A stretch of 64,000 nt of DNA from an uncultured Candidatus Thioglobus sp. (lineage in GTDB: Bacteria > Pseudomonadota > Gammaproteobacteria > PS1 > Pseudothioglobaceae): contig CAZOAA010000001.1 in the NCBI GenBank assembly GCA_964577715.1, positions 13,396-77,395 on the forward strand, in the 5' to 3' direction. Below, piece after piece: positions 5,014-30,041 of this stretch. Both the position numbers and the translations under genes were made by a program. The notes under the pieces are model-generated. The model saw only the letters and a list, made by a program, of their open reading frames with translations, did no database searches and had not been told where the DNA came from. Within the stretch, counting starts at the first letter, position 1; the number at the start of each line of letters is the position of its first letter.

Positions 5014-5570
5014 ATCATTTGACAATACATGATACTCATATTTCAGGGCTTCGTATAATTGAGCGTCATTCATTTGAGGATCGCCGAGGATATTTTGAAC
5101 GACTTTACTCCCATAAAGAGTTTGATAGTTTATTGCAGGATAGAATGATCAAGCAAATAAATCATACATTCACCCGTAAAAAAGGCACTGTTCGTGGGCT
5201 ACACTACCAACATCCTCCTTTCTCAGAGGTTAAAATTGTTTCCTGTTTGAAAGGTAGTGTTTGGGATGTTGCAGTTGATCTTAGAAAAAAATCACCAACT
5301 TTTTTGCAATATCATGCGATACGTATGTCAGAAGATGATTCTATTTCTTTCTGGATACCTGAGGGGTTTGCGCACGGTTTTCAAACATTAACCCATGATT
5401 GTAAAATGCTTTATCTACATACTAAAGAATACATGCCAAATTCAGAAGGTGCACTTAATGCAACTGACCCAAAAGTCAAAGTAGAGTGGCCATTAAAAAT
5501 TTCAGATATTTCTGATAAAGATAGAGGGCATCCATTTATCTCTAAGGGCTTTGAGGGAGTAGTTGTATGA
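5010..5570 (+). CDS. RmlC-fold NDP-4-keto-6-deoxyhexose 3,5-epimerase family protein
   Basis: Cupin-type RGLHYQ and WIPEGFAHGFQTL motifs, 186 aa, ATGA overlap with rfbG. Confidence 0.75.
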   Translation: MNHLTIHDTHISGLRIIERHSFEDRRGYFERLYSHKEFDSLLQDRMIKQINHTFTRKKGTVRGLHYQHPPFSEVKIVSCLKGSVWDVAVDLRKKSPTFLQYHAIRMSEDDSISFWIPEGFAHGFQTLTHDCKMLYLHTKEYMPNSEGALNATDPKVKVEWPLKISDISDKDRGHPFISKGFEGVVV

Positions 5571-7920: not shown

Positions 7921-8651
7921 GAATAATACTTATGGCAGATGGGATAGTTGGGTTTAAGATCGCCCAATACTTATCAAAACAATATCCAGGTGATTTATTT
8001 TTAATTGTTACTATTAAAAAAAATAATATATATAAGTTTTTTAAAAAAAATGGTTTTAATGTATTGGCTTTTGAATCAGAAGAGATTATTTTAAAAAAAC
8101 TTAACCATAAAGAGGTTGACCTTGGAATTCTAGCATGGTGGCCAAATATTATTAGATCACCTTTGATAGATTATCCAAAACAAGGCTTTTTGAACACCCA
8201 TCCAAGTTTCTTACCGTATAATCGCGGGAAGCACTTTAGTTTTTGGGCGATCGTTGAGCAGGCGCCATTTGGAGTATCTATACATTGTGTAAGCAATAAT
8301 ATTGATTCAGGTGATATAATAGCTCAAAAAGAAATAAACTACAACTGGTGTGATAATGGTGAATCTTTATATTATAAGTCCCAGGAAGAGATGTTAAATT
8401 TGTTTATTAAGACTTATCCATCTTTACACATGGGGTGTTTAAGTAAAAAAAAGCAAGATATGTCAAAGGGATCTTATCACCTGTCATGTGAAATTGAAGA
8501 GGCTAGCAAAATTAATCTTGATGATTTGTATACAGGGAGAGACATTCTAAACAAACTAAGGGCTCGAACATTTTCCGGGCATCCTAGTTGTTGGTTTGAG
8601 GATGAAAATATTGTTTATGATGTATCTATAGAAATTAATAAAAAAAAATAA
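7917..8651 (+). CDS. Sugar N-formyltransferase (Fmt/PurN-like formyl-transferase domain)
   Basis: NTHPSFLPYNRG (HxSLLPxxRG-type motif) and downstream IDSGDII. Sits directly after the aminotransferase. Confidence 0.72.
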   Translation: MRIILMADGIVGFKIAQYLSKQYPGDLFLIVTIKKNNIYKFFKKNGFNVLAFESEEIILKKLNHKEVDLGILAWWPNIIRSPLIDYPKQGFLNTHPSFLPYNRGKHFSFWAIVEQAPFGVSIHCVSNNIDSGDIIAQKEINYNWCDNGESLYYKSQEEMLNLFIKTYPSLHMGCLSKKKQDMSKGSYHLSCEIEEASKINLDDLYTGRDILNKLRARTFSGHPSCWFEDENIVYDVSIEINKKK

Positions 8652-8672: not shown

Positions 8673-9638
8673 ATGGAAGCAAATAAAAGCTATTCCGACA
8701 GAAGTTCCGGATAGGATGTTGAGTCTGGAGTACGGAGTAATTCAGAAATATATGAATTTGACTTTTCAAATGAATCGTCTACCTCAGAAGAAATTAGTGT
8801 CAGTTGGCATTTAGATTCTTACTCAGGAATCCTTGAACATAATGAATTAAAAAGTCTTTCTGACAAAGATAAAGAGTTCGTAAAAGGTATTCAGTTATTA
8901 GAATTTGTCACTAAACAAACAATTTTTGAGATTGATTGTGTTAATTATGTAACTTCTAGACTAACGCATGGGAAATATAAATTTAATTTTTCTGAGTCTT
9001 TAAAGCTTGACGCTTTAAAAGTTTATACCGATGAAGGATATCATGCTTATTACACACAGAAAGTGGCCAATCAGATAAGGCATTATTACCATATTGGTGA
9101 GGACGATATTAGCCCATTTGTTAAAGACTATTATTCAAAGATCGAATTAATTATTTCCAAGTTTGATAAAAAATACAAAGATCTTTGTATGCTGGCATTT
9201 GTTATTGCTGGCGAGAATCAAATTGTCTCAGATCTTTCGAATGATATGCGAAAGATAGTCCATGAGCCTATTCGAAAGATGTTTAGAGATCATATGAAAG
9301 ATGAAGTATTTCATGCTAGATTCTTTAGTATAGTTTTTGAAAAAATTTGGCCTCAACTAAATGCTAAAGAGAAAGAAATTATGGGGTTGTGCTTTTGTGA
9401 CTCTATGGAAATATTAGGATCACCTCGTACTGATATCTATTATTTTTCTTTGGCCAAGCTGGGTTTTAACGAACAACAAATATCGCAATATATCAACGAT
9501 ATATATAATACAATTGAGTGGAAAACAACTAGAATTAGCGCTAGAATGGCTCCAACAATAAGCTTATTAAAATCAAATAATGTTTTTGATATTGAATCAG
9601 TTAAAAATGCGTTTCAGAGAAAAAATTATATAATATAA
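8673..9638 (+). pseudogene. Ferritin-like di-iron oxygenase (AurF-like fold) interrupted by an in-frame TAG at codon 14
   Basis: ATG at 8673 and the 9063..9638 ORF are in the same frame. The only stop between them is TAG at 8712..8714. The 116 codons between the TAG and the GTG at 9063 contain no ATG/GTG/TTG. Two ExxH motifs (DEGYHAYY at about 9030, DEVFHARFF) plus upstream and mid-protein Glu residues fit an E...ExxH...E...ExxH four-helix-bundle di-iron site. Confidence 0.5.
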
Positions 9639-18156: not shown

Positions 18157-18659
18157 ATGAACATTAACAATATAGATTTATTTGTATTTGATTTTGACGG
18201 TGTGTTGACCAATAACCTTGTTTATACAAATGAGTTGGGAGAGGAATTTGTTGTTTGTAGTCGTAGTGATGGCTTGGGATTTGATTTGTTAAAGGCAATA
18301 AAAAAAGAGTCTTGTATATTGTCAACCGAAAAAAACCATGCTGTTTCAGCGAGAGCAAAAAACTTAATATCCCTGTAATTCAAGGGGCTGGGGATAAGGT
18401 TGATGTATTGAAAAATATTGCAAAAGAGCGAAATATTAGCCTTGACGGTATTTTTTATGTTGGCAATGATGTTAATGATTATTATGCTATGGATATTTGC
18501 GGTTATACAGCTTGCCCATCTGATAGTCATAGTTTAATTAAAAACAATGTGGACTACATACTTAAAGCTAAAGGTGGGCATGGAATTGTTCGTGAAATAT
18601 TAGAAGATGTTTTTCAATTAAATATACTTAAATTACTTAAAAAACTAAAAGATGAATAA
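18157..18659 (+). pseudogene. KdsC-family HAD phosphatase paralogue, frameshifted at an A6 run (18357..18362)
   Basis: ORF 18157..18378 (DFDGVLT ... STEKNHAVSARAKN) and ORF 18312..18659 (KKLNIPVIQG ... GNDVNDY ...) are the N- and C-terminal halves of one protein. Together they are colinear with the intact paralogue at 19499..20017. Adding one A to the A6 run restores ...ARAKKLNIPVIQG... Confidence 0.8.
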
Positions 18660-19491
18660 ACCAATATTTATTATTGCAGAGATTGGAATAAATCACAATG
18701 GAGATATGCAGATATGTAAAGACTTGATTGATGTTGCTATTGATGCTGGTTGTAATGCAGTAAAGTTTCAAAAAAGAGACGTTAATCAAGTTTATACACA
18801 AGAGTTCTTAGATTCGTCTAGAGAGAGTCCATGGGGTACTACACAAAGGGAGCAAAAGAGCGGACTGGAGTTTGGAGTTGATGAATATCGAGAAATTGAT
18901 CAATATTGTAAAGAAAAAGATATAGAGTGGTTTGCTTCGGCATGGGATTTAAACAGCCAAGTATTCTTGCAGCAGTTTGATTGTAAGTACAATAAAATTG
19001 CCTCAGCCATGATTGTCTGCGAAGACCTTTTAAGGCTGGTTGCCAAAGAAGGAAGGCACACCTTTATATCAACAGGGATGACAACCTATGATGACATTAG
19101 CAAAGCTGTTGACATTTTTAACGAGGAAGGTTGTTCGTTTGAGCTGATGCATACAGTATCTACCTACCCAATGAAAGATGAAAATGCAAATCTAAAAATG
19201 ATCGATACTCTCAAGCGGAAGTACCAATGCAATGTTGGTTATAGTGGACATGAAGTTGGCTTGGCAGTTTCATATGCCGCCGCTGCTTTAGGAATTTCCT
19301 CGCTAGAAAGGCATATTACCATGGACAGATCTATGTACGGTTCTGACCAGTCTGCTTCGGTAGAATCGGCAGGATTGAGAACTTTGGTGGGAGCGGTAAG
19401 AAAAATAGAAAAAGCAATGGGCGACGGTATTAAAAAAACTATAGAGGAAGAAGGGCCAGTGGCACAGAATTTAAGACAACATTTGAGTTAA
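18652..19491 (+). CDS. NeuB-family ulosonic acid (phosphate) synthase, short form without C-terminal SAF domain
   Basis: IIAEIGINHNGDMQICKDLIDVAIDAGCNAVKFQ, GYSGHE and LERHIT motifs. Only 279 aa, whereas typical NeuB is about 340-350 aa. Confidence 0.8.
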   Translation: MNKPIFIIAEIGINHNGDMQICKDLIDVAIDAGCNAVKFQKRDVNQVYTQEFLDSSRESPWGTTQREQKSGLEFGVDEYREIDQYCKEKDIEWFASAWDLNSQVFLQQFDCKYNKIASAMIVCEDLLRLVAKEGRHTFISTGMTTYDDISKAVDIFNEEGCSFELMHTVSTYPMKDENANLKMIDTLKRKYQCNVGYSGHEVGLAVSYAAAALGISSLERHITMDRSMYGSDQSASVESAGLRTLVGAVRKIEKAMGDGIKKTIEEEGPVAQNLRQHLS

Positions 19492-19498
19492 ATAATAA

Positions 19499-20017
19499 AT
19501 GGATAGATTTATATCTATAGACTGCATAGATGTCTTGGTTTTTGACTTTGACGGTGTATTGACTGATAATTCAGTCTATATTGATGAAAGCGGTAGAGAG
19601 CAGGTTAAATGCAGTAGATCGGATGGGTTGGCTTTCGATGTTTTGCGAAAGATTAACAAACCTGTTTGTATTATCTCTACTGAAAAGAATTCCGTTGTCT
19701 CTTCTAGAGCTGCAAAATTACGCATACCAGTAATTCAAGGTGTATCTGATAAAGCAAGAGAATTAGAGAAACTTGCAAATGAGCACTCTTATCAATTGTC
19801 AAAAATACTATTTGTGGGTAATGATTTAAATGATTATCCGGCGATGAACTTATGTGGTTTTACAGCGTGTCCGGGCGACAGTCATCAGGTAATTCAAGAG
19901 TTGTCCACTTTTGTACTTCGAACAGAGGGTGGCAAAGGGGTTGTTAGAGAGTTGATAGAAGAAATCTTCCAGTTAGATCCATTGAAGATATTATTTGAGA
20001 TTGAGAATAAGAGGTAA
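19499..20017 (+). CDS. KdsC-family HAD-IIIA ulosonate-phosphate phosphatase
   Basis: VFDFDGVLTDN (DxDGV), STEKN, GNDLNDY. 172 aa. Confidence 0.8.
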   Translation: MDRFISIDCIDVLVFDFDGVLTDNSVYIDESGREQVKCSRSDGLAFDVLRKINKPVCIISTEKNSVVSSRAAKLRIPVIQGVSDKARELEKLANEHSYQLSKILFVGNDLNDYPAMNLCGFTACPGDSHQVIQELSTFVLRTEGGKGVVRELIEEIFQLDPLKILFEIENKR

Positions 20018-20019
20018 TA

Positions 20020-20856
20020 ATGAAAAATGATTTTGGCGTAATGCAAGGAAGGCTGTTGCCTAAATACCAAGGAAGGTATCAAGCCCATCCGTTAGGGTAC
20101 TGGCAAGAAGAATTTCTTGTGGCATCAGAGTTGGGATTGGATTGTATTGAGTTTATATTGGATTTTAATGATGCCGAGAAAAACCCTTTGTTAGCGAAAG
20201 ATGGAGACTTAAAGATTGCAAATGTGGTCAATAAAACAGGTGTATCTGTTAAAACCATTTGTGCAGACTACTTTATGGAGGTGCCACTGCATACTGATGA
20301 TCAGTTAGTGGCTGATACAAGCTACAAGGTCTTAGAAACACTGGTTGATTCGGCTTCGAAGTTGGGTGTAACAGATATTGTAATACCTTGTGTTGATCAA
20401 TCTTCGTTGAACAGTGAGATTAAAGTCGAACGTTTTATTGGCCAAATAAAGCCCATAATACCAACTCTTAAGAGTAAGAATATTAACCTATCTTTAGAGA
20501 CAGATTTAGCACCAGATGCATTTTCTGCGTTATTAAGAGCAATCGGTTCAGAGAAAGTTACTGTTAATTATGATATCGGTAATAGTGCTGCATTAGGATT
20601 TAACCCAGTCGAGGAGTTGGAGGCCTATGGTGATAGAATTACCGACATACATATTAAGGATAGAGTACTGGGAGGGGGTCCGGTAACATTAGGCGAAGGC
20701 GATGCGGATTTTCAATGTTTTTTCCAAAAGCTAAAAGAGTTTGATTATAGAGGGCCCTTTATTATGCAGGCTTATCGAGATGATGAAGGTGTTGAGATCT
20801 TCAAAAAACAGCAACAGTGGATTTTAGAAATGATGCATAATTTTTATGAGGATTAG
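20020..20856 (+). CDS. Xylose-isomerase-like TIM-barrel sugar(-phosphate) isomerase/epimerase family protein
   Basis: 278 aa. Spaced acidic/His motifs (IEFILDF, LSLETD, NYDIGNS, HIKD) fit the AP_endonuc_2 fold. Confidence 0.55.
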   Translation: MKNDFGVMQGRLLPKYQGRYQAHPLGYWQEEFLVASELGLDCIEFILDFNDAEKNPLLAKDGDLKIANVVNKTGVSVKTICADYFMEVPLHTDDQLVADTSYKVLETLVDSASKLGVTDIVIPCVDQSSLNSEIKVERFIGQIKPIIPTLKSKNINLSLETDLAPDAFSALLRAIGSEKVTVNYDIGNSAALGFNPVEELEAYGDRITDIHIKDRVLGGGPVTLGEGDADFQCFFQKLKEFDYRGPFIMQAYRDDEGVEIFKKQQQWILEMMHNFYED

Positions 20857-21538
20857 TTGCATTATTCTCGCCCGAGGTGGATCAAAGGGTATACCTAAAA
20901 AAAATATTATCGATTTTTGCGGGAAACCGCTAATTGCTTGGACCATTCTACAAGCCTGTAAAGCTGAAGGGGTGAGTGATATCTGGGTAAGCTCTGACAG
21001 TGAAGAGATCTTGGAGGTTGCTGAACAGTATGGCGCTAATACTATTGCTCGACCTGAAGAAATATCAGGAGATTTAGATTCTTCTGAGTCAGCTTGGTTG
21101 CACGCAGTTGATTTTATTGAGCAAAGGTCAAACCATCCAATTGATTATATTCTAGCGCCACAAGCAACTTCCCCATTGCGACACCCTGAAGATTTTTCTG
21201 GCGCTATTAGACAGGTTATACAAGAGAGGTCAGATTCGTTGTTATCTGTATCCGAGATTGAAGATTTTTTTATTTGGAAAAAGGGACGTGAACATATAGA
21301 GTCGGTCAACTATGATTATAAAAATAGAAAGCCTCGACAACAGATTGAAGAAACGTATTTAGAAAATGGCTCTTTCTACTTATTTAAGCCTCAATTATTG
21401 CGCAATGAAAACAACCGATTGGGTGGTGATATTTCATTGTTTAAGATGGATAGATATAAAATGTTTCAGATAGACAATGTTGATGATATTAAACTTTCTT
21501 CGGTAATTATGAAAGGTTTTGGCCTAAATAACTTATGA
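20846..21538 (+). CDS. Acylneuraminate (NeuA-type) cytidylyltransferase
   Basis: IILARGGSKGIPKKN N-terminal motif, 230 aa. Confidence 0.8.
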   Translation: MRISCIILARGGSKGIPKKNIIDFCGKPLIAWTILQACKAEGVSDIWVSSDSEEILEVAEQYGANTIARPEEISGDLDSSESAWLHAVDFIEQRSNHPIDYILAPQATSPLRHPEDFSGAIRQVIQERSDSLLSVSEIEDFFIWKKGREHIESVNYDYKNRKPRQQIEETYLENGSFYLFKPQLLRNENNRLGGDISLFKMDRYKMFQIDNVDDIKLSSVIMKGFGLNNL

Positions 21539-22284
21539 CTGACTATCTTGAGAATCTTTTTTCTCTTAAAGGCAAGACAGCCATTGTAACTGGTGGCTCA
21601 AGAGGTATTGGTGCCGAGATCGCGCTAGCTTATGCTAACTGCGGAGCTAATGTGGTTTGTATTGCTAGATCAGAGTTGGCAGACGATGAGCGACTCCAAT
21701 CGCTTTATCGTCAGTGTGATATCTCCGATGAGAGACAGTTCCAAGAGCTCTGTGAATCAGTAAAATCTAACTATGGCGGCATTGATATTTTAGTAAATGC
21801 CGCTGGTATTAGCCTTTCCGAGGTTGATTCGAAAGATGAATTAGAGCGTTTTACAAAAACTCTTGAGGTTAATTTAATTGCAACCTACCAGTGCTGCAAT
21901 ACCGCCTCTAAATTTATGAAAAATGGAGGTTCAATTATTAACATTACCAGTATTGGTGCTATGCAAGGTTTTCCAAATAACCCGAGTTATGTGGCAAGTA
22001 AAGGCGGCGTTAAAATGTTGACCAAAGCGTTAGCAGTAGACCTAGGAGCTAAGGGTATTCGAGTCAATAATATTGCGCCCGGATATATTAAAACTGACAT
22101 GACAGCCAAGAGCTTTGCAAATCCGGTTGCAAATAAAGAACGAGTAGATCGAATGATCATTCCACGATGGGGCGAAACCATAGATTTGGTTGGAGCTGCG
22201 ATTTTTCTAGCATCGAAAGCCTCTTCTTATACAACAGGGTCAAGTCTAGTGATTGATGGTGGCTGGACCGCCAAAGGTATGTAA
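21535..22284 (+). CDS. Short-chain dehydrogenase/reductase (classical SDR)
   Basis: TGGSRGIGAEIA, NAAG, SYVASKGG (YxxxK). Confidence 0.85.
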   Translation: MTDYLENLFSLKGKTAIVTGGSRGIGAEIALAYANCGANVVCIARSELADDERLQSLYRQCDISDERQFQELCESVKSNYGGIDILVNAAGISLSEVDSKDELERFTKTLEVNLIATYQCCNTASKFMKNGGSIINITSIGAMQGFPNNPSYVASKGGVKMLTKALAVDLGAKGIRVNNIAPGYIKTDMTAKSFANPVANKERVDRMIIPRWGETIDLVGAAIFLASKASSYTTGSSLVIDGGWTAKGM

Positions 22285-22286
22285 AC

Positions 22287-23057
22287 ATGGATCTGCATTT
22301 GCTAAACAAGAGAGTGGTGATTACAGGGTCTTCTGGCGGTATCGGTAAAGCTATTGCAAAAGGATTTCTGGAAGAGGGTGCTAGTGTGATAATAGTGGCA
22401 AGAGACCAAGATAAGTTAAGCAAGACTGCAGCAGAGTTAAGTAAGGCCTATGGTGACGATAAGGTCTTTTTTGCCATCTGTGACTGTTCAAAGGAAGAGA
22501 GCGTGCAACAGTTGAGAGGCTTTGTTAGGAAAACTTGGAATGGTGTAGACATTGTTGTGGCTAATGTTGGCAGTGGTAGAAGCGTTCCAGACGCCATACC
22601 CTCAACCGCACAATGGAGCAGAGTATGGAGTAGTAATTTTGACTCCGCATTACATACTGCGCGTATTTTTACCCCTATGCTAGAAGAATCCAGAGGTAGT
22701 CTGTTGTTTATTTCCTCTATCGCTGGACTAGAGGCATTTGGCGCGCCTGTGGACTATTCAACTGCTAAAGCAGCCATTATCGCTTTTGCTAAGAATATGT
22801 CAAGAAAACTAGCGCATATTCGGGTTAATGTTGTTGCCCCGGGAAATGTTTACTTTGAGGGCGGCTCCTGGGATGAAAAAATTAAGCAAGACAAAGATCG
22901 TGTTGATAGTCTGATTCGCTCAACTGTCCCTGTGAATCGTTTTGCTTCACCAGAGGAGATTTCGGATGCGGTGGTTTTTTTATGCTCTGATAGAGCAAAT
23001 TTTATAACCGGCGCAACTCTAGTAGTTGACGGCGGCCAGACCGTAGGAGTTTATTAA
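22287..23057 (+). CDS. Short-chain dehydrogenase/reductase (classical SDR)
   Basis: TGSSGGIGKAIA, YSTAKAA (YxxxK). Confidence 0.85.
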   Translation: MDLHLLNKRVVITGSSGGIGKAIAKGFLEEGASVIIVARDQDKLSKTAAELSKAYGDDKVFFAICDCSKEESVQQLRGFVRKTWNGVDIVVANVGSGRSVPDAIPSTAQWSRVWSSNFDSALHTARIFTPMLEESRGSLLFISSIAGLEAFGAPVDYSTAKAAIIAFAKNMSRKLAHIRVNVVAPGNVYFEGGSWDEKIKQDKDRVDSLIRSTVPVNRFASPEEISDAVVFLCSDRANFITGATLVVDGGQTVGVY

Positions 23058-23885
23058 ATGTCAGATAATTTATTTCGATTAGATGGAAAGGTGGTGGTTA
23101 TTACTGGAGCTGCCGGCTTACTGGGAAGGCAGCATGCACAAGCAGTGGCGAGTCATGGCGGCACACCTATTTTGTTGGACTTGTCTCAACGCGATGTGGA
23201 CAGTATTGCAACTGAATTAAATGTTAAGTATGGCGTAAACGCATTAGGCTTCTCTGTCGACATTACGAACGAAGAGCAAGTCAAGGAAAATGCAGATTAT
23301 CTATTTAGTTTTTTCGGCAAAATCGATGGACTGGTTAATAATGCTGCCAACAACCCCAAAGTTGAAGACAGTGATGAGGTAAATTTCTCTAGATTGGAGC
23401 ACTTTCCTTTAGATGTTTGGCAGGATGACATAATGGTAGGGCTAACAGGTTCGTTTTTATGTGCAAAGCACTATGGAGCAAAAATAGCGCAAAGCCAAAG
23501 TGGCGGAACGATTGTTAATATTGCCTCAGATCTTGGGCTAATTGCGCCTGATCAGCGCCTTTATAGGCAGGAGGGTGTTGCCGATGATTTGCAAAATGTT
23601 AAGCCTGTCACTTATTCAGTTGTTAAGTCCGGCTTAGTTGGTTTAACGAGATATCTAGCAACATATTGGCCGGACAAGAATGTAAGATGTAACGCCATGT
23701 GTCCAGGCGGGGTAGAAAACGGCCAACCGGAAGACTTTCTGCAGGCTGTACATGCAAGAATACCCATGGGTAGAATGGCACAGCCTAATGAATATCAGAC
23801 TACGCTTTTATGGATGCTGAGCGATGCATCTGGCTACTTGAACGGGGCTGTTATTCCAGTAGATGGTGGCAGAACAACCTGGTAG
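23058..23885 (+). CDS. Short-chain dehydrogenase/reductase (classical SDR)
   Basis: TGAAGLLGRQHA, NNAA, YSVVKSG (YxxxK). Confidence 0.8.
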   Translation: MSDNLFRLDGKVVVITGAAGLLGRQHAQAVASHGGTPILLDLSQRDVDSIATELNVKYGVNALGFSVDITNEEQVKENADYLFSFFGKIDGLVNNAANNPKVEDSDEVNFSRLEHFPLDVWQDDIMVGLTGSFLCAKHYGAKIAQSQSGGTIVNIASDLGLIAPDQRLYRQEGVADDLQNVKPVTYSVVKSGLVGLTRYLATYWPDKNVRCNAMCPGGVENGQPEDFLQAVHARIPMGRMAQPNEYQTTLLWMLSDASGYLNGAVIPVDGGRTTW

Positions 23886-23957
23886 TATTGATAAGCAAAG
23901 AGAATTAGGGGTAAAGAATATGAAAAAAGTTAAGCCGATGCAGGCAAAAACGATGCA

Positions 23958-24200
23958 ATGGCCAGAAGATATGGTGATAACTATAGAATGCTACATGACA
24001 AGACACACGTATCTTTATTTTCTGATTTTGGTTTGAGTGATTTACTAGAGGATGAGGGATTTTTAGTAAAAAATATTAAATATCCATACTTTTATACTAA
24101 GTATTTTAATTCTAAAGAGATAGCAAAACTATTTAAAATGGTAAAACTTCTCCTGCATTTTATGGGAATATTTTTACAATTTACGCCTTAAAAAAATAAA
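23958..24200 (+). pseudogene. Probable 3' remnant of a class I methyltransferase gene (N-terminal SAM domain missing, frameshifted tail)
   Basis: The 77-aa ORF reads DKTHVSLFSDFGLSDLLEDEGFLVKNIKYPYFYTKYFN, typical of a methyltransferase C-terminal segment. A different frame at 24140..24200 reads GKTSPAFYGNIFTIYALKK-stop, which also looks like genuine protein. No SAM-binding motif lies upstream. Confidence 0.4.
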
Positions 24201-24204
24201 TTTT

Positions 24205-25275
24205 ATGAAAAGTTACACTACAGATGGAAAGGTTGTTCACCTCTCGAAAACAGAACAAATAAATGATAAATTGTCTAGAATTTTAGGCAGTAAATTTGTT
24301 GAATATAGGGACGAGTGGGATAGGGCTAACAGATTGGAGTTAGTTACTGAGTTTCCATTATTTTTACAATTAGATATGAATCAAGAGTGTAATTTTGAGT
24401 GTCCTCATTGTATTGTGGGGGATATGAGTGTAGCTAAAAAGTACTACAGTGGAGCTCCATTAAGCTGGGAAAAATATAAAATTATTGTTGATGAGGGTAG
24501 AGAGCATGGCTGTCCATCTATTTCTTTACAAGGAAATAATGAGCCTTTAATGATAAAAGACTTGGAAAAATATATTGAATATGCGCATAATAATGGTTTT
24601 ATGGATATTATGATAAATTCAAATGCTTCACCATTAACTGAAAAAAGAGCTAAATCCATATTAGATAGTGGATTGACAAGAATTAGATTTAGTTTGGATG
24701 CTGCGGATAAGTCTACATTTGAAAAAATTAGATTAGGTGGAAGATATGATCAAGTCATTAGAAATATTGATAGATTTTTGGAGATTAAAGAAAAGGGCGG
24801 GTACAATCTGCCAGTAACTGGCGTTAGTTTTTGCCATCAAAAAGACAATGAAAATCAAGTAGAGTCTTTTATTAAACAGTGGCAAGATAAGGTTGATATG
24901 GTAACAATACAGAAATATATGCCACCTGCTCCAGAGCCAGGATATGACAAGTTTTACCCATCTGCTCAAAAGGATAATGACCAGATTGTAAGTAAGGGTT
25001 TTAAGTGTCCACAACCATTTCAAAGGGTTACCATTAGAAATTCAGAGATAACTCCGTGTTGTGCAGCAATTAGTAGTCAGTTAAAGATAGGGGAAGTTGG
25101 GAAAACAACTATATATGAAGCTTGGAATTCAAAAGGAATGCAGAAGTTGAGAAAATTACATATTGAGGGTAGGTGGTACGATAACCCAGTTTGTAAGGTT
25201 TGTATAGAAATGTCAGACCCTAAGGCAAAATTTTACACCTCTAAAGCAATCGAGTTAGATATGGATTTGTCTTGA
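24205..25275 (+). CDS. Radical SAM enzyme with C-terminal SPASM/twitch-like Cys cluster
   Basis: CNFECPHC (CxxxCxxC) at about residue 62. C-terminal CPQPF ... TPCCA ... CKVC cysteines. Confidence 0.8.
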   Translation: MKSYTTDGKVVHLSKTEQINDKLSRILGSKFVEYRDEWDRANRLELVTEFPLFLQLDMNQECNFECPHCIVGDMSVAKKYYSGAPLSWEKYKIIVDEGREHGCPSISLQGNNEPLMIKDLEKYIEYAHNNGFMDIMINSNASPLTEKRAKSILDSGLTRIRFSLDAADKSTFEKIRLGGRYDQVIRNIDRFLEIKEKGGYNLPVTGVSFCHQKDNENQVESFIKQWQDKVDMVTIQKYMPPAPEPGYDKFYPSAQKDNDQIVSKGFKCPQPFQRVTIRNSEITPCCAAISSQLKIGEVGKTTIYEAWNSKGMQKLRKLHIEGRWYDNPVCKVCIEMSDPKAKFYTSKAIELDMDLS

Positions 25276-26249
25276 TAAATATAGTAATTGTAGGTTGTGG
25301 AGAGTTTGGAAGTAGACATTTACAAGCATTGTCTTATTTACAAGAATCATCAAATGTGTTTTTAGTTGATAGATCTGAACAATCTTTAACTGTTGCAATA
25401 GATAGATTTAATAGTGTTTATAATAAAAAATTACAATCATTAGTCAAGGTTGTTGGTGTTAAAAGTATAGATGAGATACAAGAAAATATTGACTTGGTTA
25501 TTGTTGCTACAAGTTCTAAAGATAGATTGTTAACTTTGTCTAATGTGTTGAGTGTTATTTCTCCAAAATATATTATTCTAGAAAAGTTTTTATTTCAAGA
25601 GTCGCAAGACTTTGTTGATGCTAAGTTGTTGATTGACGCGTCATCAACAGAGGTTTTTGTTAATCAATGGCTAAGTTCTAATTATTTGTTTTCTAGAATT
25701 AGAAGTTGGCTTGGAGAATTCAATAAATTAAAAATGACAGTTAGTGGTGGAAATTGGGGAATTTCATGCAACTCAATACATTTTGTGGATTATTTTGAAA
25801 CTCTTATTGGTAAGAGTATTGATACGGCAAGTGGAATGTTAAATAGAGTTTATGCAGCAAAAAGAGAGGGATTTTATGAGTTTAATGGATCCATTGTATT
25901 AAACAGTGGTACTAATTTCAATCTTGAGTTGATTTCGGAGGATACTCATGAGGTTGATGTGAATATTCTTATTGAAACCGAAGATAAAACAGTTAGTGCC
26001 AGCATAAAACCTAATCAACAGGTTTTTGTCAATTTTAAAGATTTTCAGCAAGATGTTGATGAAATTGGAAGTATTCCATTTCAAAGTAAAATTACTAATG
26101 TATTGGTGGAAGAGTTAATGATATTTGGATACTCAAGATTGCCAACATATGAAAAAGCATCAAGACAGCATATGTTATTATTGCCAATTTTTAATAAATA
26201 TATTAGAGAAAATTCTAGCTGGAACGGACAAGGCTGCCCCATTACATAA
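25272..26249 (+). CDS. Gfo/Idh/MocA-like NAD(P)-binding oxidoreductase (divergent)
   Basis: N-terminal IVIVGCGEFGSRHLQAL Rossmann motif, ILEKF in place of the EKP motif, 325 aa. Confidence 0.55.
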   Translation: MINIVIVGCGEFGSRHLQALSYLQESSNVFLVDRSEQSLTVAIDRFNSVYNKKLQSLVKVVGVKSIDEIQENIDLVIVATSSKDRLLTLSNVLSVISPKYIILEKFLFQESQDFVDAKLLIDASSTEVFVNQWLSSNYLFSRIRSWLGEFNKLKMTVSGGNWGISCNSIHFVDYFETLIGKSIDTASGMLNRVYAAKREGFYEFNGSIVLNSGTNFNLELISEDTHEVDVNILIETEDKTVSASIKPNQQVFVNFKDFQQDVDEIGSIPFQSKITNVLVEELMIFGYSRLPTYEKASRQHMLLLPIFNKYIRENSSWNGQGCPIT

Positions 26250-26270
26250 AATACAATTAAAAGATTAAAT

Positions 26271-27236
26271 ATGAAATTAGCATTGATAGGATGTGGAAAT
26301 ATTGCAGAATTACACGTTCCGGCTTTTAAGGCGGCAGGGTTTGATGTTTGTTGCGTTGCGGGCTCATTAAATTCTATAAATGTTGATGATTTTGCAAAGC
26401 GACACCAGATAGATAAAGTGTATAAAGATCCAGATGATTTGGTACATTCAAACCTATGGGATGCTATCTTAATTGTATCATCAATCGACTCTATACTTGG
26501 ATATATAAAAAAATCCAGTGTCTATAATAAGCCAATTTTAGTAGAAAAGCCTGTTTCGTTAAACTATAAAGAATTGGATAGCGTATTAGATTTTGATAAT
26601 GTTTATGTTGCCTACAATAGAAGATTCTATAGCACAACTAGTTATGCAAATGATTTTTTAAAAAATCATAAAAAGTCTTTAATAAAAATTACTATTCCAG
26701 AATCTAGTATGGGTGAGCTAGGGTTTAACAGTTTTCCGAATCTACTGCCATCAAGGGTTTACGAAAATTCTGTCCATGTAATTGACTTGGTTAATTACAT
26801 CGCTGGAAAGATTGAGTGGACGCATGTCGATCATTTATTAGATAAAGAAAAATATTTATCTGTATCTGCTCTTGGAATAAGCAAAGAAGGGCACAATATT
26901 ATTTTAAATGTGTGTTTTGACGCCCCTGATAATTTTTCTATAGATATTACAAATGGAAATGAGCGCATTGAAATGCGTCCGATTGAGATTGCTTATCATT
27001 ATAAAGGAATGAGAGTTGAGGAGCCAAGTGACGATATTCCGATTAGAAGATATTTGCCTTTGGTAAAAAATACTGTTATTAATTCTAGCTCACGGGAAGA
27101 ATTAAAACCCGGGTTTTATGAGCAAGCTAATGATTTTATGGATATATGCAAGGGTGAAAAAATAACAAATAGTGCAACATTAATAGATGCTAAAAATGCT
27201 CTTGAGGTAGTTCATAGGCTGCGAAATAATATCTAG
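26271..27236 (+). CDS. Gfo/Idh/MocA-family oxidoreductase
   Basis: LALIGCGNIAELHVPAF and ILVEKPVSL motifs. Confidence 0.7.
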   Translation: MKLALIGCGNIAELHVPAFKAAGFDVCCVAGSLNSINVDDFAKRHQIDKVYKDPDDLVHSNLWDAILIVSSIDSILGYIKKSSVYNKPILVEKPVSLNYKELDSVLDFDNVYVAYNRRFYSTTSYANDFLKNHKKSLIKITIPESSMGELGFNSFPNLLPSRVYENSVHVIDLVNYIAGKIEWTHVDHLLDKEKYLSVSALGISKEGHNIILNVCFDAPDNFSIDITNGNERIEMRPIEIAYHYKGMRVEEPSDDIPIRRYLPLVKNTVINSSSREELKPGFYEQANDFMDICKGEKITNSATLIDAKNALEVVHRLRNNI

Positions 27237-27237
27237 C

Positions 27238-28884
27238 ATGAAAAGCATATACATCTATTCTGGTGTAGACGCTAAAGAAGTAACAAATATTTCTGGAGTT
27301 TGTTATCATTTAGATACTGGAGAAGTGGCCTCAGATTCTTTAGTTAATGTGAACAATCAACAACGATTAAATGAAATTGCCAGAGATTACTCTTTAGAGT
27401 ATGCTGATTTTATTTTTTCTCAAAATAAGATATTTCTTGATAATAATATCATTCTCGATAAAGACTTGTCGTTATTTTTTTTATCTGATTTATCATGTAA
27501 GCGTACTGAAATTTTTAATACATATTCGAATTATTGCAATATTGTTTTAATAAAGGAAAGTATTGATAAATATAAAATTACCAATATTATTTTTGATGGA
27601 TGTCCAAAGGATTTTATCGAATCTTGTACAAGTGCTTTTGGTGGGATTTCATATAAAGCAATTAATATTAAAAAAAAAACAGAAAGAATTAAATATATTT
27701 TGATCAGAAATGCCTATTTTTTCTTATCCATAATTGTTGGTAGATTATTTGAAAGTTTATTGTTTTTAAATAAAAAATACACACACACAACCCCCTCTAA
27801 AAAATACTTTTTAACACGTTATCCGTTACACCTTGATGACGATTTTGTTGATGATAAATATGGTAATTTGATTACGAAAAATGATAGCTTGCTGGTAAAC
27901 ATAATGACCGATGGTATTCATCAGTGTGTAAGTCCAATAAGTTATATTAAAAATGTTAAGTATTTAAAGCGATCTTCAAGAGTATGCATTCTAGATAGCT
28001 ACATACAGCTGAAAGACGTGATTAAGAGCGTTAAACTTATGTTTAAAATTAGCCATAGCTTTAAACCGCTATATCAAAAAAGATACATATTTAATGGTGT
28101 TGATGTTTCAATTGGTATATGTAATGAAATTTCATTATCTGCTTTGAGAATTCCAAGATTGGTAATGATAGGTGAGTCCGTAAAAAAATTCGCCTCTTTG
28201 AACTGTATTAATGAATTGTATTACTATCTACATGAGTACAGCTATGGAAAATTGTTTACATATGTATTTTCCCGTTATTTTCCAAATGTTAGGCTTGTTG
28301 GTTATCAGCACGGGCCATCATCAAAGCGAAAAATGGTTTATTTACATGGAAAGGGGGAATTAAGAAGAGACAGTGATGGAGTTCATTCATTCTATCTACC
28401 TGATAAAATATTGGCAGAGGAAAGTTATTCTGCTAATTTATACAGAAAGTCAGGATATCTTAATGTTGAGCTGATGAGTAAAGTGTACAGGTTGTCATAT
28501 TTAAAACGCATACAGGTAAAAAAATCTAATCAAAATGTTGTGCTAATAGTGCCAGGATTGCACGACGGAAGATATTTACTTGAATCGATAAAATATAAGA
28601 TTTTAAATAATGGTGGTAATGCATATGTTTTAAAGCCACATCCTAGAGCTGATAATAGTTATGCAGATGAGTATGTATTTATAAAAAACTTAACCACTTC
28701 AAATGACCATATATCAGAGTTGCTAAAAATAGCAACAAAAGTGATCGCTACGTATAGTTCTGTTGCTATTGAAGCAAATATATTAGGAATTAATGTTGAA
28801 TTGGTGGAAATTCCTGGAAAGATCAATGAAAGCCCTTTAATTGATTCTGATTTTATATCTTGTGTGCAAGATATAAAGTACTAA
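27238..28884 (+). CDS. Hypothetical protein; orphan TagF/KpsC-like transferase candidate
   Basis: 548 aa. C-terminal VLKPHPRADN ... KIATKVIATYSSVAIEANILGINVEL. Confidence 0.35.
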   Translation: MKSIYIYSGVDAKEVTNISGVCYHLDTGEVASDSLVNVNNQQRLNEIARDYSLEYADFIFSQNKIFLDNNIILDKDLSLFFLSDLSCKRTEIFNTYSNYCNIVLIKESIDKYKITNIIFDGCPKDFIESCTSAFGGISYKAINIKKKTERIKYILIRNAYFFLSIIVGRLFESLLFLNKKYTHTTPSKKYFLTRYPLHLDDDFVDDKYGNLITKNDSLLVNIMTDGIHQCVSPISYIKNVKYLKRSSRVCILDSYIQLKDVIKSVKLMFKISHSFKPLYQKRYIFNGVDVSIGICNEISLSALRIPRLVMIGESVKKFASLNCINELYYYLHEYSYGKLFTYVFSRYFPNVRLVGYQHGPSSKRKMVYLHGKGELRRDSDGVHSFYLPDKILAEESYSANLYRKSGYLNVELMSKVYRLSYLKRIQVKKSNQNVVLIVPGLHDGRYLLESIKYKILNNGGNAYVLKPHPRADNSYADEYVFIKNLTTSNDHISELLKIATKVIATYSSVAIEANILGINVELVEIPGKINESPLIDSDFISCVQDIKY

Positions 28885-28892
28885 CTGTAAAA

Positions 28893-30041
28893 ATGACAAT
28901 AAAGGTTTCACATTTTGTAGGTTTATCTGGTATTGGAGGAGTTCAAAGGAATTTTTTTGAATACATGGGATTTGCAAAAGACGCGAATATAACTCATAAA
29001 GTCTACACAATTGGTGGTGTTGGTGAAGAGTATACTGCCGCTTTTAAAACATTTAATATATTGAATGTCATAAACTTATTAGTATTTATAAGGGATATTG
29101 TCTCTAATAATACTATAGTTCATTTCTATAATAATTTATCAAGTTTAAAACTACTTATATTCCTTTTCTTTCTGCCAACAAAAAAAATTATAATGCATGA
29201 GAGAGGGGGGGTATGGAACACGCCATTATCTAGATCCTTTGTTATAAGAAATATTGTAAAAAAAGTGGACATAATTATTGCCAATTCAAATGCAACAAAA
29301 GCAATTCTTAATCAGAAGTTTTACATATCTAATAATAAGATACAAGTTATCCATAATGGAATAGATATCACCACGTATTGTGTTAAAGATAAAGTAAATT
29401 CAGAAAAAAAATTTATTATTGGATTTCTTGGTAGGTTTGACACGCCGAAAGGCATAAAAATATTGATAGATGCAGTTAAGTACATCAATACTACTAAAGG
29501 TCTCCGAAATGATTTTGAGTTGCATATTGCTGGAGATGGCCCACTAAGGGGCTGCTTGAAAGCGATATCGAAGAATATAGATAATATTAAATTTATCGGA
29601 AGAGTTGACAATCCCTATGTTTTTTTAAGCAAGATAGATATATTAATCATTCCTTCAATTAGAGAACCTTTGGGAAATGTTAGTTTAGAGGCTGGACTGT
29701 GCAAGGTTGCTGTTATTGCGAGTAATATAGATGGAATACCAGAAATAATAGATGACAATGTAAGTGGAAAATTAATCACGCCGAAAGATGCGCTGGATAA
29801 AAGTTGCTATTCTAAAGAATCTGTTGCATTTCCAGAGGTGGTATTCTTTCCAGAACGTAAAAAAATAGACGCCCCTTTACAAGTCAATTTTAAAGAGCTA
29901 TCTGACGAAATTATCATACTTATGAATGATGATAAGTTGAGAGACTATTACGCAAATAACTTAAATAAAAGGGTTATAAAATACTTTAATATTAATCGAT
30001 ATGCGTCAGAGTTGCATGATTTATATAAAAGATTGTCATGA
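28893..30041 (+). CDS. GT4-family glycosyltransferase
   Basis: The ATG at 28893 is preferred over the TTG at 28860, which overlaps the upstream stop. IIPSIREPLGNVSLEAGLCKVAVIASNIDGIPEII (E-x7-E region). Confidence 0.85.
   Translation: MTIKVSHFVGLSGIGGVQRNFFEYMGFAKDANITHKVYTIGGVGEEYTAAFKTFNILNVINLLVFIRDIVSNNTIVHFYNNLSSLKLLIFLFFLPTKKIIMHERGGVWNTPLSRSFVIRNIVKKVDIIIANSNATKAILNQKFYISNNKIQVIHNGIDITTYCVKDKVNSEKKFIIGFLGRFDTPKGIKILIDAVKYINTTKGLRNDFELHIAGDGPLRGCLKAISKNIDNIKFIGRVDNPYVFLSKIDILIIPSIREPLGNVSLEAGLCKVAVIASNIDGIPEIIDDNVSGKLITPKDALDKSCYSKESVAFPEVVFFPERKKIDAPLQVNFKELSDEIIILMNDDKLRDYYANNLNKRVIKYFNINRYASELHDLYKRLS

What the first reader, a model, noticed from the sequence alone, without database searches (positions are those of the whole stretch)
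24205..27236. Radical SAM/SPASM enzyme teamed with two Gfo/Idh/MocA oxidoreductases inside a glycan cluster
Seen:
- The CxxxCxxC radical-SAM core (CNFECPHC) is accompanied by a C-terminal Cys-rich auxiliary-cluster region.
- It is translationally coupled (TTGA overlap) to a divergent oxidoreductase and followed by a canonical Gfo/Idh/MocA oxidoreductase.

Established:
- SPASM/twitch radical-SAM enzymes are mostly peptide maturases, but the family includes the carbohydrate-type dehydrogenase BtrN.
- Gfo/Idh/MocA enzymes oxidise sugar or inositol hydroxyls to ketones.

Inference: the trio may carry out an oxygen-independent oxidation, epimerisation or C-C/C-H modification of a sugar, ulosonate or cyclitol. 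That chemistry has not been described for surface-glycan clusters. The TIM-barrel protein at 20020 belongs to the same fold family as the inosose isomerases/dehydratases.
Basis: partly seen in the sequence, partly recalled or inferred. Interest (0 to 1): 0.6.

Follow-up and report, generated by a model that had tools for sequence, protein, structure and literature searches.

The report
Radical SAM enzyme in sialic-acid-like sugar pathway
An iron-sulfur "radical SAM" enzyme of the sugar-oxidising BtrN type sits in a gene set for a sialic-acid-like surface sugar. It is an optional add-on seen in SAR11, Prochlorococcus, marine archaea and Leptospira, its chemistry is undescribed, and it is not a fixed partner of the two oxidoreductases next to it.

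Summary
The three genes are real and tightly packed. The radical SAM protein (24205-25275) has the CNFECPHC cluster motif. It also has one four-Cys auxiliary-cluster ("twitch") domain, not a full SPASM domain. These Cys align with the auxiliary-cluster Cys of BtrN, which is the best solved-structure match for the family profile.

All seven cluster Cys are invariant in 20 orthologues and 9 paralogues. I found no precursor peptide and no RiPP or anSME signal.

The trio is not a conserved unit:
- In 39 non-redundant loci with orthologues of the radical SAM enzyme, NeuB lies within 10 kb in 31 and a CMP-sugar cytidylyltransferase in 29. Homologues of the window's two oxidoreductases occur in none.
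- The two Gfo/Idh/MocA genes form their own widespread pair: adjacent in 52 of 64 loci, and downstream of NeuB and the cytidylyltransferase. None of 80 loci has this radical SAM family.
- A collinear relative (L044) has SDR-GfoL-Gfo-548aa-GT4 with no radical SAM gene.

Most likely the enzyme is an optional radical tailoring step for the CMP-ulosonic acid made by the module at 18652-23885. The Gfo pair and the SDRs probably work by ElaA/ElaC-type oxidation and reduction. The exact chemistry is unknown, and I found no literature on it.

The parts
24205..25275 (+). Twitch-type radical SAM enzyme (P0001, 356 aa). It has a family-specific N-terminal domain of about 50 aa, a radical SAM core and a BtrN-like C-terminal twitch domain.
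   Evidence: AF2 pLDDT 92.3. dN 0.13 against L048 with dS saturated.
24388..24411 (+). CxxxCxxC motif (C62, C66, C69) that binds the radical SAM [4Fe-4S] cluster.
   Evidence: Invariant in 36 + 29 sequences.
25006..25203 (+). Twitch auxiliary-cluster domain. C268, C285, C330 and C333 align with the four auxiliary-cluster Cys of BtrN. C286 is an extra Cys that is nearly family-specific.
   Evidence: profile positions 265-346 against BtrN 163-245. (invariant in orthologues and paralogues).
25272..26249 (+). GfoL (P0002): divergent two-domain Gfo/Idh/MocA oxidoreductase, first gene of a conserved pair. R85, E104, K105 and H170 are among the invariant residues.
   Evidence: The family has 2813 50%-identity clusters.
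26271..27236 (+). Gfo (P0003): Gfo/Idh/MocA oxidoreductase with an EKP motif, second gene of the pair.
   Evidence: A Gfo-superfamily gene lies directly downstream of GfoL in 52 of 64 loci.
27238..28884 (+). 548-aa orphan protein that follows the Gfo pair. It is a candidate transferase for the finished sugar (inference).
   Evidence: No Pfam or NCBIfam hit. 70% identical and in the same position in L044, 67% in L048. A LIC12162-family protein occupies the same position in L046.
28860..30041 (+). GT4 glycosyltransferase, collinear with L044 (83% identity).
18652..23885 (+). Upstream CMP-ulosonic acid module and likely source of the radical SAM enzyme's substrate: short NeuB, HAD phosphatase, xylose-isomerase-like TIM barrel, CTP_transf_3 and three SDRs.
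   Evidence: The same module holds orthologues of the radical SAM enzyme in L006, L010, L011, L016 and L019. A window-type NeuB (49-64% identity) lies near the radical SAM gene in 12 of 21 subfamily-A loci.
23886..24204 (+). Junction gap, 28% GC. It holds a 77-aa ORF (23958-24191) that resembles the C-terminal part of the Methyltransf_23 family found next to the radical SAM gene in other loci. This is probably a scar of a methyltransferase-radical SAM cassette insertion.
   Evidence: HMM positions 214-260, E 2e-4, only 7.9 bits, other five frames E >= 0.56. No Pfam hit. No Rfam hit. No terminator found. In L044 the SDR3-GfoL spacer is about 80 nt.

Best explanation
P0001 is a BtrN-type twitch radical SAM enzyme with one SAM-binding [4Fe-4S] cluster and one fully Cys-ligated auxiliary [4Fe-4S] cluster. 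It tailors a sugar in a NeuB-type CMP-ulosonic (sialic-acid-like) acid pathway. In this window that pathway is the module at 18652-23885.

It is an optional accessory. Probably a methyltransferase-radical SAM cassette was inserted between SDR3 and GfoL in an otherwise conserved string, SDR2-SDR3-GfoL-Gfo-548aa-GT4. The methyltransferase has since decayed.

Most likely mechanism (inferred, not shown):
- Reductive cleavage of SAM gives the 5'-deoxyadenosyl radical.
- This radical abstracts H from a carbinol C-H of the ulosonate, its CMP ester or its sugar-phosphate precursor.
- The substrate radical loses a proton and passes an electron to the auxiliary cluster, giving a ketone, as in BtrN.
- A neighbouring NAD(P)H enzyme (SDR or Gfo), or in other loci an aminotransferase or methyltransferase, then processes the ketone.

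The GfoL-Gfo pair is a separate, widespread unit of nonulosonic-acid clusters. Together with the SDRs it probably oxidises and re-reduces hydroxyls of the CMP-sugar in the manner proposed for ElaA/ElaC.

My confidence is about 0.75 that it is a sugar-tailoring accessory of the NeuB pathway and not an obligate trio. It is about 0.35 for alcohol-to-ketone oxidation specifically.
For: BtrN-type enzyme:
- The family profile hits BtrN best in the PDB (5.6e-16), through the twitch domain, with all four auxiliary Cys aligned.
- The seven cluster Cys are invariant across 20 orthologues (27-63% identity) and 9 paralogues.
- There is no CX2CX5CX3C motif, so no second auxiliary cluster.
- Foldseek neighbours include the sugar or nucleotide enzymes BtrN, BlsE, DesII and viperin, as well as MoaA.

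Link to the NeuB pathway:
- NeuB is within 10 kb in 31 of 39 loci and CTP_transf_3 in 29 of 39.
- The radical SAM gene is embedded in the same NeuB/TIM/3xSDR module in L006, L010, L011, L016 and L019.
- The Leptospira string is [CBS-NeuB-SAF-TIM fusion]-DegT-CTP_transf_3-FeADH-radical SAM-methyltransferase-carbamoyltransferase.

Optional accessory:
- L044 is collinear with the window (57-83% identity) but has no radical SAM gene. L048 has it.
- No orthologue occurs in 36 genomes of the same family.
- Purifying selection: dN 0.13 with dS saturated.

Other points:
- Several Arg are invariant (R35, R159, R161, R176, R274). This fits an anionic substrate (inference).
- ElaA/ElaB/ElaC precedent for the CTP-transferase + Gfo/Idh/MocA + SDR logic (PMC13656337).
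- The GfoL-Gfo pair is conserved and NulO-linked.
Against: - No biochemical data exist for any member. Substrate and reaction type are inferred only from fold, Cys pattern and gene neighbourhood.
- Similarity to BtrN is confined to the core and the twitch domain (about 17% identity; TM normalised to the query about 0.5). Twitch enzymes also include epimerases and MoaA.
- NeuB and CTP_transf_3 are missing within 10 kb in about a quarter of loci, for example Prochlorococcus L001 and L022.
- In SAR11 loci the gene sits beside SIS isomerase, kinase and aldolase genes. The substrate may therefore be a sugar-phosphate precursor rather than the finished ulosonate.
- Gfo-superfamily genes of other subfamilies are present in 13 of 39 loci. 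Other twitch radical SAM enzymes lie next to GfoL-Gfo in 5 of 80 loci. A looser functional link to Gfo enzymes is therefore not excluded.
Confidence: 0.6

Rival explanations
1. First reader's model. The radical SAM enzyme and the two Gfo/Idh/MocA enzymes form one dedicated catalytic team that acts on the same intermediate. For example, radical oxidation would be followed by stereo-controlled reduction by the Gfo proteins.
For: - Translational coupling through the TTGA overlap and tight spacing.
- The trio recurs in L048.
- Other twitch radical SAM subfamilies lie beside GfoL-Gfo in L065, L120 and L101.
- Gfo-superfamily genes lie directly beside orthologues of the radical SAM enzyme in L013, L023 and L041.
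Against: - 0 of 39 loci with orthologues of the radical SAM enzyme hold GfoL or Gfo homologues.
- 0 of 80 GfoL loci hold this radical SAM family.
- L044 and L046 keep SDR-GfoL-Gfo without any radical SAM gene.
- Nearly every gene in this one-strand locus overlaps or abuts its neighbour, so coupling carries little information.
Confidence: 0.15
2. The enzyme is a redox-neutral radical epimerase of the HygY/NeoN type (recalled from my own knowledge). H is abstracted from a sugar carbon and returned to the opposite face by a Cys thiol. This would invert a stereocentre that NAD enzymes cannot reach.
For: - Twitch architecture.
- An extra Cys, C286, is conserved in 19 of 20 orthologues. C103 and C210 are conserved within subfamily A.
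- The peptide epimerase EpeE is among the Foldseek hits.
Against: - C103 and C210 are replaced in Leptospira-type orthologues. C286 is G in a Prochlorococcus orthologue and D, S or A in most paralogues. No universally conserved H-donor Cys was identified.
- C286 sits next to a cluster ligand rather than in the barrel.
Confidence: 0.15
3. The enzyme is a radical lyase or dehydratase resembling AprD4, DesII or viperin. H abstraction next to a hydroxyl or phosphate leaving group is followed by elimination and one-electron reduction, giving a deoxy-keto sugar that an SDR then reduces. The net result is deoxygenation.
For: - DesII, viperin and AprD4 are among the structural neighbours.
- Five NAD(P) oxidoreductases sit nearby.
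- The pathway appears to use phosphorylated intermediates: a HAD phosphatase here, and SIS, kinase and IMPase-family genes beside orthologues of the radical SAM enzyme.
Against: - Profile and structure scores for these enzymes are weaker than for BtrN.
- From my own recollection, AprD4 and DesII lack an auxiliary cluster, whereas this family keeps a four-Cys one.
Confidence: 0.08
4. The enzyme is a peptide or protein maturase: a RiPP SPASM enzyme, or an anSME acting on a sulfatase-family protein.
For: - Pfam SPASM hit.
- A sulfatase-family gene lies directly upstream in L003 and L004.
- A 77-aa ORF lies upstream in the window.
Against: - There is a single auxiliary cluster only.
- anSME and the peptide maturases are absent from, or very weak in, the profile search: SkfB 8e-3, anSME no hit.
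- A sulfatase neighbour occurs in only 2 of 39 loci.
- The 77-aa ORF has no counterpart in other loci and looks like a methyltransferase remnant.
- No PqqD or RRE domain was found.
Confidence: 0.02

Closest known systems
BtrN (2-deoxy-scyllo-inosamine dehydrogenase of butirosin biosynthesis; PDB 4M7S/4M7T)
   Same: - Radical SAM core plus a C-terminal twitch domain.
- Its four auxiliary-cluster Cys align one-to-one with C268, C285, C330 and C333.
- It is the best PDB hit of the family profile and among the top Foldseek hits.
- It acts on a carbohydrate-type substrate without a peptide.
   Different: - About 17% identity, and the Foldseek TM-score normalised to the query is only 0.47-0.49 (0.69-0.76 normalised to the shorter BtrN).
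- The window protein is about 90-110 aa longer. It has a conserved 50-aa N-terminal domain and a longer barrel.
- The context is NeuB/CMP-ulosonic acid clusters, not 2-deoxystreptamine aminoglycoside clusters.
- The substrate is probably anionic rather than an aminocyclitol.
- The reaction is untested.
ElaA/ElaB/ElaC cassette for CMP-Leg5,7Ac2 C8 epimerisation (Acinetobacter baumannii KL49; PMC13656337)
   Same: - The same parts list sits in a nonulosonic-acid cluster: a CMP-sugar cytidylyltransferase, Gfo/Idh/MocA oxidoreductase(s) and SDR(s).
- It gives a precedent for oxidation and re-reduction on the CMP-activated sugar.
   Different: - Orthology of P0002 or P0003 to ElaA was not tested, because I had no ElaA sequence.
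- Here there are two Gfo genes in a fixed pair, three SDRs, no aminotransferase or acetyltransferase in the module, and an additional radical SAM enzyme.
- The ElaA/ElaC roles are themselves based on crystal structures, docking and knock-outs.
Leptospira interrogans NulO cluster (Ricaldi et al. 2012, PMC3438082)
   Same: It contains an orthologue of the radical SAM enzyme (43% identity) in the string NeuB fusion-DegT-CTP_transf_3-FeADH-radical SAM-methyltransferase-carbamoyltransferase.
   Different: - The paper never mentions the radical SAM gene.
- That cluster makes di-N-acetylated NulOs and has aminotransferases.
- The window module has none, and it uses a short NeuB without the SAF domain.
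anSME and RiPP SPASM maturases (for example anSMEcpe, SuiB, SkfB, PqqE)
   Same: Same broad SPASM/twitch clade. Foldseek E-values are 1e-9 to 1e-6.
   Different: - Most of them carry two auxiliary clusters and act on peptides. SkfB is, from my recollection, a one-cluster twitch enzyme but still acts on a peptide.
- This family has one auxiliary cluster, no peptide partner and no RRE domain.

Membership tests
Radical SAM superfamily (PF04055) | CxxxCxxC cluster motif and a Pfam score over the gathering threshold | tested here: met
   C62/C66/C69 are invariant. Score 61 bits against a cut-off of 29.5.
Radical SAM superfamily (PF04055) | Partial TIM-barrel fold with a GGE-like SAM-binding motif | tested here: met
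   The AF2 model (pLDDT 92) matches MoaA, BtrN, BlsE and viperin. The QGNNEP motif aligns with FYGEP of BtrN.
Full SPASM subclass (two auxiliary clusters) | Seven-Cys pattern including CX2CX5CX3C | tested here: not met
   Only C268, C285/C286 and C330xxC333 lie after residue 250. There is no CX2CX5CX3C motif.
Twitch subclass (BtrN-like) | A single auxiliary [4Fe-4S] site whose four Cys align with those of BtrN | tested here: met
   The HMM alignment pairs C268, C285, C330 and C333 with the BtrN Cys at chain positions 169, 187, 232 and 235. They are invariant in 29 further sequences. Actual cluster content cannot be tested in silico.
BtrN orthologue (DOIA dehydrogenase) | 2-Deoxystreptamine aminoglycoside cluster context and close sequence similarity | tested here: not met
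   The context is NeuB/CTP_transf_3 in 29-31 of 39 loci. Identity is about 17%.
NCBIfam NF033640 N_Twi_rSAM | Score over the curated cut-off (170 bits) | tested here: not met
   76 bits. This is the best NCBIfam hit but is below the cut-off.
RiPP maturase / anSME | Conserved adjacent precursor peptide or sulfatase substrate; RRE domain | tested here: not met
   No conserved small ORF. A sulfatase neighbour occurs in 2 of 39 loci. No PqqD or RRE hit. anSME is not hit by the profile.
Gfo/Idh/MocA oxidoreductases (P0002, P0003) | N-terminal Rossmann domain over the Pfam cut-off, two-domain fold, and the EKP-type Lys | tested here: met
   Scores are 26.4 and 39 bits against a cut-off of 24. The P0002 model has TM 0.65-0.75 to Gfo/Idh/MocA structures. 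E104, K105 and H170 are invariant in the P0002 family. P0003 has VEKP.
ElaA-type CMP-NulO dehydrogenase | Orthology to ElaA, with CMP-Leg5,7Ac2 as substrate | not tested
   No ElaA sequence or structure was reachable. Only the cluster logic matches.

The most novel reading that the evidence does not exclude
BtrN-like twitch radical SAM enzymes carry out an undescribed radical step in the biosynthesis of sialic-acid-like (ulosonic) sugars. The step would be C-H oxidation to a keto intermediate, or radical deoxygenation through hydroxyl or phosphate elimination. A partner class-I methyltransferase often follows. The same step would operate in some of the most abundant marine microbes (SAR11, Prochlorococcus, marine Thaumarchaeota) and in the NulO cluster of pathogenic Leptospira. 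It would yield sugar structures not yet catalogued.
Probability: 0.45. Interest if true: 0.7.

Novelty: new variant of a known kind. Interest (0 to 1): 0.55.

Why it matters
Nonulosonic and related ulosonic acids decorate capsules, LPS, flagella and S-layers. They shape phage, grazer and immune recognition. Known tailoring uses NAD(P), PLP, acyl-CoA and SAM-methyl chemistry.

A radical SAM step would add a new reaction class to these pathways. It would also imply unknown sugars on the surfaces of SAR11, Prochlorococcus, ammonia-oxidising archaea and Leptospira.

For this window specifically, the result redraws the functional units. The radical SAM enzyme belongs with the upstream NeuB module. 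The two Gfo genes form an independent, very common pair whose role in NulO clusters is itself poorly defined.

Tried and rejected
- Literature: full-text searches found nothing relevant for radical SAM with nonulosonic acid, with Leptospira and sialic acid, with NeuB and cytidylyltransferase, with pseudaminic acid, or with legionaminic. One paper only lists phase-variable radical SAM genes in Campylobacter fetus.
- Organism identity: SSU rRNA searches of the genome, archaeal and bacterial, found nothing. The organism is inferred only as gammaproteobacterium-like from the RpoB/RpoC N-termini and from NarG (my own knowledge).
- Viruses: the viral contig scan gave only one remote 23% hit.
- Junction gap: blastx against neighbouring genes was not significant. 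Only a weak HMM match to the Methyltransf_23 family was found. There were no Rfam hits and no terminator.
- 548-aa orphan: no BLAST similarity to the LIC12162-family proteins that sit in the same position elsewhere.
- MoaA paralogue: rejected. MoaA aligns only over the core. The weak hits (E 1e-11 to 1e-15) in related genomes cover only the radical SAM core and look MoaA-like; this was not verified.


Full report
**1. Observation**

The three ORFs exist as described: 24205-25275 (356 aa), 25272-26249 (325 aa, TTG start) and 26271-27236 (321 aa).
- CNFECPHC is at residues 62-69.
- Pfam gives Radical_SAM (2e-16) and SPASM (1.3e-7, residues 268-333) for the first protein. It gives GFO_IDH_MocA N-domains for the other two, at 26.4 and 39 bits against a cut-off of 24.
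- The stop of the radical SAM gene overlaps the TTG start of the next gene as TTGA. That start agrees with the N-termini of homologues.
- The window is a one-strand surface-glycan locus of about 60 genes. Its GC is 33%, in a 1.6-Mb genome of 36.8% GC. The genome looks gammaproteobacterial from RpoB/RpoC and NarG, on my own knowledge.

**2. What kind of radical SAM enzyme it is**

An alignment of 36 homologues (49-81% identity) shows these Cys as invariant: C62, C66 and C69, then C268, C285, C286, C330 and C333. There is no CX2CX5CX3C motif, so only one auxiliary cluster is possible. This is a twitch domain, not a full SPASM domain.

A profile of the family finds BtrN as the best solved structure (5.6e-16). 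The strongest stretch is the C-terminal domain. There C268, C285, C330 and C333 pair with the BtrN Cys at chain positions 169, 187, 232 and 235. Weaker hits follow:

| PDB protein | Profile E-value |
|---|---|
| BtrN | 5.6e-16 |
| MoaA | 1.8e-13 |
| GDGT-MAS | 6e-12 |
| DesII | 7e-4 |
| SkfB | 8e-3 |
| anSME | no hit |

I extended the alignment to 19 more orthologues (27-63% identity, including Leptospira, Thaumarchaeota and Prochlorococcus) and to 9 paralogues (23-29% identity).
- The three radical SAM Cys and the four twitch Cys stay invariant.
- C103 and C210 are specific to one subfamily.
- C286 is kept in 19 of 20 orthologues but in only one of the nine paralogues.

The AF2 model is confident (pLDDT 92.3). 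It has no close structural relative. MoaA, BtrN, BlsE, SkfB, SuiB, DesII, EpeE, anSME and viperin all score with query-normalised TM about 0.5-0.6. All NCBIfam hits are far below their cut-offs; the best is the generic N_Twi_rSAM model.

The protein falls nearer BtrN than anSME, the peptide maturases or the methylases, and the auxiliary Cys are conserved.

**3. Who the radical SAM enzyme travels with**

The family is large: 315 hits, and the listed top 120 are all at least 50% identical. Most come from marine metagenomes.

Loci from reference genomes come from these organisms:
- SAR11
- Prochlorococcus
- marine group I Thaumarchaeota
- Terasakiella
- Parcubacteria
- Omnitrophota
- Gallionella
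- a Nitrospirota magnetotactic bacterium
- six named Leptospira species plus related Leptospira/Leptospirales MAGs

In 39 non-redundant loci with 10-kb flanks:
- NeuB is present in 31 and a CTP_transf_3 cytidylyltransferase in 29.
- Also recurrent are DegT aminotransferase (18), a Methyltransf_23 methyltransferase (16), Fe-ADH (12) and SDRs (12).
- No homologue of the window's P0002, P0003 or the 548-aa protein was detected by BLAST.

In L006, L010, L011, L016 and L019 the radical SAM gene sits inside the same module that lies upstream in the window: short NeuB, TIM barrel, CTP_transf_3, three SDRs, with or without HAD or SIS.

A short NeuB that is 49-64% identical to the window's lies near the radical SAM gene in 12 of 21 subfamily-A loci.

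In Leptospira-type loci the conserved string is [CBS-NeuB-SAF-TIM-barrel fusion]-DegT-CTP_transf_3-FeADH-radical SAM-methyltransferase-carbamoyltransferase. Five genomes whose radical SAM locus lacked NeuB nearby encode NeuB elsewhere. This is weak evidence, because NeuB is common.

**4. The two oxidoreductases are a separate unit**

P0002 belongs to a family of 2813 50%-identity clusters. R85, E104, K105 and H170 are among its invariant residues. It has a full Gfo/Idh/MocA fold: pLDDT 95 and TM 0.65-0.75.

In 80 metagenome loci of this family:
- A Gfo-superfamily gene follows directly in 52 of the 64 loci with room downstream.
- CTP_transf_3 lies within 4.5 kb upstream in 30 of 39.
- NeuB lies upstream in 21 of 23.
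- None contains an orthologue of P0001.
- Five contain other twitch radical SAM subfamilies. In L065 and L120 these are BtrN-sized proteins of 266-274 aa just upstream of GfoL. The other three loci are L101, L071 and L083.

Conversely, HMMs detect some Gfo-superfamily gene in 13 of the 39 radical SAM loci. It is directly adjacent in L013, L023 and L041.

L044 is decisive. It is collinear with the window but has only an ~80-nt spacer where the radical SAM gene sits.

| Gene | Identity, window vs L044 |
|---|---|
| SDR2 | 67% |
| SDR3 | 72% |
| GfoL | 57% |
| Gfo | 64% |
| 548-aa protein | 70% |
| GT4 | 83% |

L046 carries HAD-NeuB-TIM-CTP_transf_3-SDRs-GfoL-Gfo-LIC12162 without a radical SAM gene. 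L048 has the radical SAM gene (81% identity) in front of the pair.

So the radical SAM enzyme and the Gfo pair are two independent accessories of NeuB-type pathways. They are combined here and occasionally elsewhere.

**5. History of the locus**

GC content changes along the locus:

| Segment | GC |
|---|---|
| NeuB to SDR3 | 37-44% |
| Junction gap | 28% |
| Radical SAM gene | 34% |
| GfoL to GT4 | 29-33% |

- The 319-nt gap upstream of the radical SAM gene contains a 77-aa ORF (23958-24191). It weakly matches positions 214-260 of the Methyltransf_23 family (E 2e-4, 7.9 bits; the other five frames give E >= 0.56).
- That family flanks the radical SAM gene in 11 of 39 loci. It is upstream in L006, as it would be here.
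- I read this, tentatively, as a methyltransferase-radical SAM cassette inserted at the SDR3/GfoL junction, followed by decay of the methyltransferase.
- The radical SAM gene itself is under strong purifying selection: dN 0.13 against L048 with dS saturated. For comparison, dN is 0.31 for GfoL and 0.28 for Gfo.
- No orthologue exists in 36 genomes of the same family. This fits a strain-variable glycan island.

**6. Mechanism**

*Shown:* the cluster-binding motifs, the BtrN-like twitch domain, and the association with NeuB/CTP_transf_3.

*Inferred:* the substrate is the ulosonic acid of the upstream module, its CMP ester or a sugar-phosphate precursor.
- Several invariant Arg (R35, R159, R161, R176, R274) fit an anionic substrate.
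- By analogy with BtrN, a fully ligated auxiliary cluster suggests it accepts an electron from a substrate ketyl radical. The net reaction would be alcohol-to-ketone oxidation.
- The ketone would then be reduced by SDR or Gfo enzymes (epimerisation). In other loci it could be transaminated (DegT, class III aminotransferase) or methylated.

For the Gfo/SDR set, the closest precedent is ElaB (CTP transferase), ElaA (Gfo/Idh/MocA, C8 oxidation of CMP-Leg5,7Ac2) and ElaC (SDR, face-selective reduction) (PMC13656337).

Rival chemistries, namely a redox-neutral epimerase or a radical dehydratase/phosphate lyase, cannot be excluded. In SAR11 loci the gene lies beside SIS isomerase, GHMP kinase, transaldolase, IMPase-family and HpcH-aldolase genes. 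This keeps a precursor-level role open.

**7. Novelty**

I found no paper linking a radical SAM enzyme to nonulosonic-acid biosynthesis. The paper on the Leptospira NulO cluster does not mention the gene.

Earlier notes of this scan describe the same theme in other genomes. They are leads, not independent evidence, but my tests on this family agree with them.

I rate this as a new variant of a known kind: a twitch radical SAM sugar enzyme in a new pathway class. It is moderately interesting. The specific "trio" idea is largely not supported.

Noticed in passing
window 23958-24191 (+): A 77-aa ORF lies in the 319-nt gap upstream of the radical SAM gene. It weakly matches the C-terminal third of the Methyltransf_23 family that neighbours the radical SAM gene in other loci (E 2e-4, 7.9 bits). 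It has no Pfam or Rfam hit. It is probably a decayed methyltransferase.
   Followed up: partly
L027-L031, L036, L040 (Leptospira), about 4700-7000: The second NeuB of the Leptospira NulO cluster is a CBS-NeuB-SAF-AP_endonuc_2 (xylose-isomerase-like TIM barrel) fusion. Ricaldi et al. 2012 called its C-terminal part a phosphatase domain. In the window, NeuB and the same kind of TIM barrel are separate genes.
   Followed up: partly
L046 10092-11894; L040 11847-13622; window 27238-28884: A 600-aa LIC12162-family (PF27859) protein closes the GfoL-Gfo string in L046. It is homologous (24% identity, 2e-33) to the 591-aa protein downstream of the radical SAM gene in Leptospira-type loci. The window's 548-aa orphan holds the same position but shows no BLAST similarity to them.
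   Followed up: partly
L011, L013, L018, L022, L034, L037-L040; L008, L021, L024, L033-L035, L039: Many loci with orthologues of the radical SAM enzyme also carry a second twitch radical SAM paralogue (23-29% identity). Many also carry B12-binding radical SAM genes. Several radical enzymes therefore cluster in nonulosonic-acid loci.
   Followed up: partly
L065 4923-5723; L120 8305-9129: BtrN-sized (266-274 aa) twitch radical SAM proteins lie just upstream of the GfoL-Gfo pair, in loci whose NeuB is 67-71% identical to the window's. In L120 a Methyltransf_23 gene sits between the radical SAM gene and GfoL.
   Followed up: partly
L018 1255-5388 (SAR11): The gene string is radical SAM-SIS isomerase-GHMP kinase-transaldolase/FSA-inositol-monophosphatase family, upstream of NeuB. 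This suggests de novo construction of an unusual sugar phosphate next to the radical SAM enzyme.
   Followed up: no
window 3188-8651 and 9063-9638: This is a separate NDP-sugar module: nucleotidyltransferase, 4,6-dehydratase, 3,5-epimerase, TylC3-type C-methyltransferase (Methyltransf_13/14), DegT aminotransferase and N-formyltransferase. It is followed by a short AurF-like (N-oxygenase family) ORF of 191 aa.
   Followed up: no
window 18652-23885 against 24205-30041: There is a compositional step. The NeuB-to-SDR3 module has 37-44% GC. The radical SAM-to-GT4 stretch has 29-34%, and the genome 36.8%. This suggests different origins for the two halves.
   Followed up: partly
PMC6321876 (Campylobacter fetus subsp. 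testudinum CFT03427_1545 and _1558): Two MoaA/NifB/PqqE/SkfB-type radical SAM genes with poly-G tracts are listed in the phase-variable gene table next to SDR, methyltransferase and formyltransferase genes. Relatives of this theme may be phase-variable in Campylobacter.
   Followed up: no
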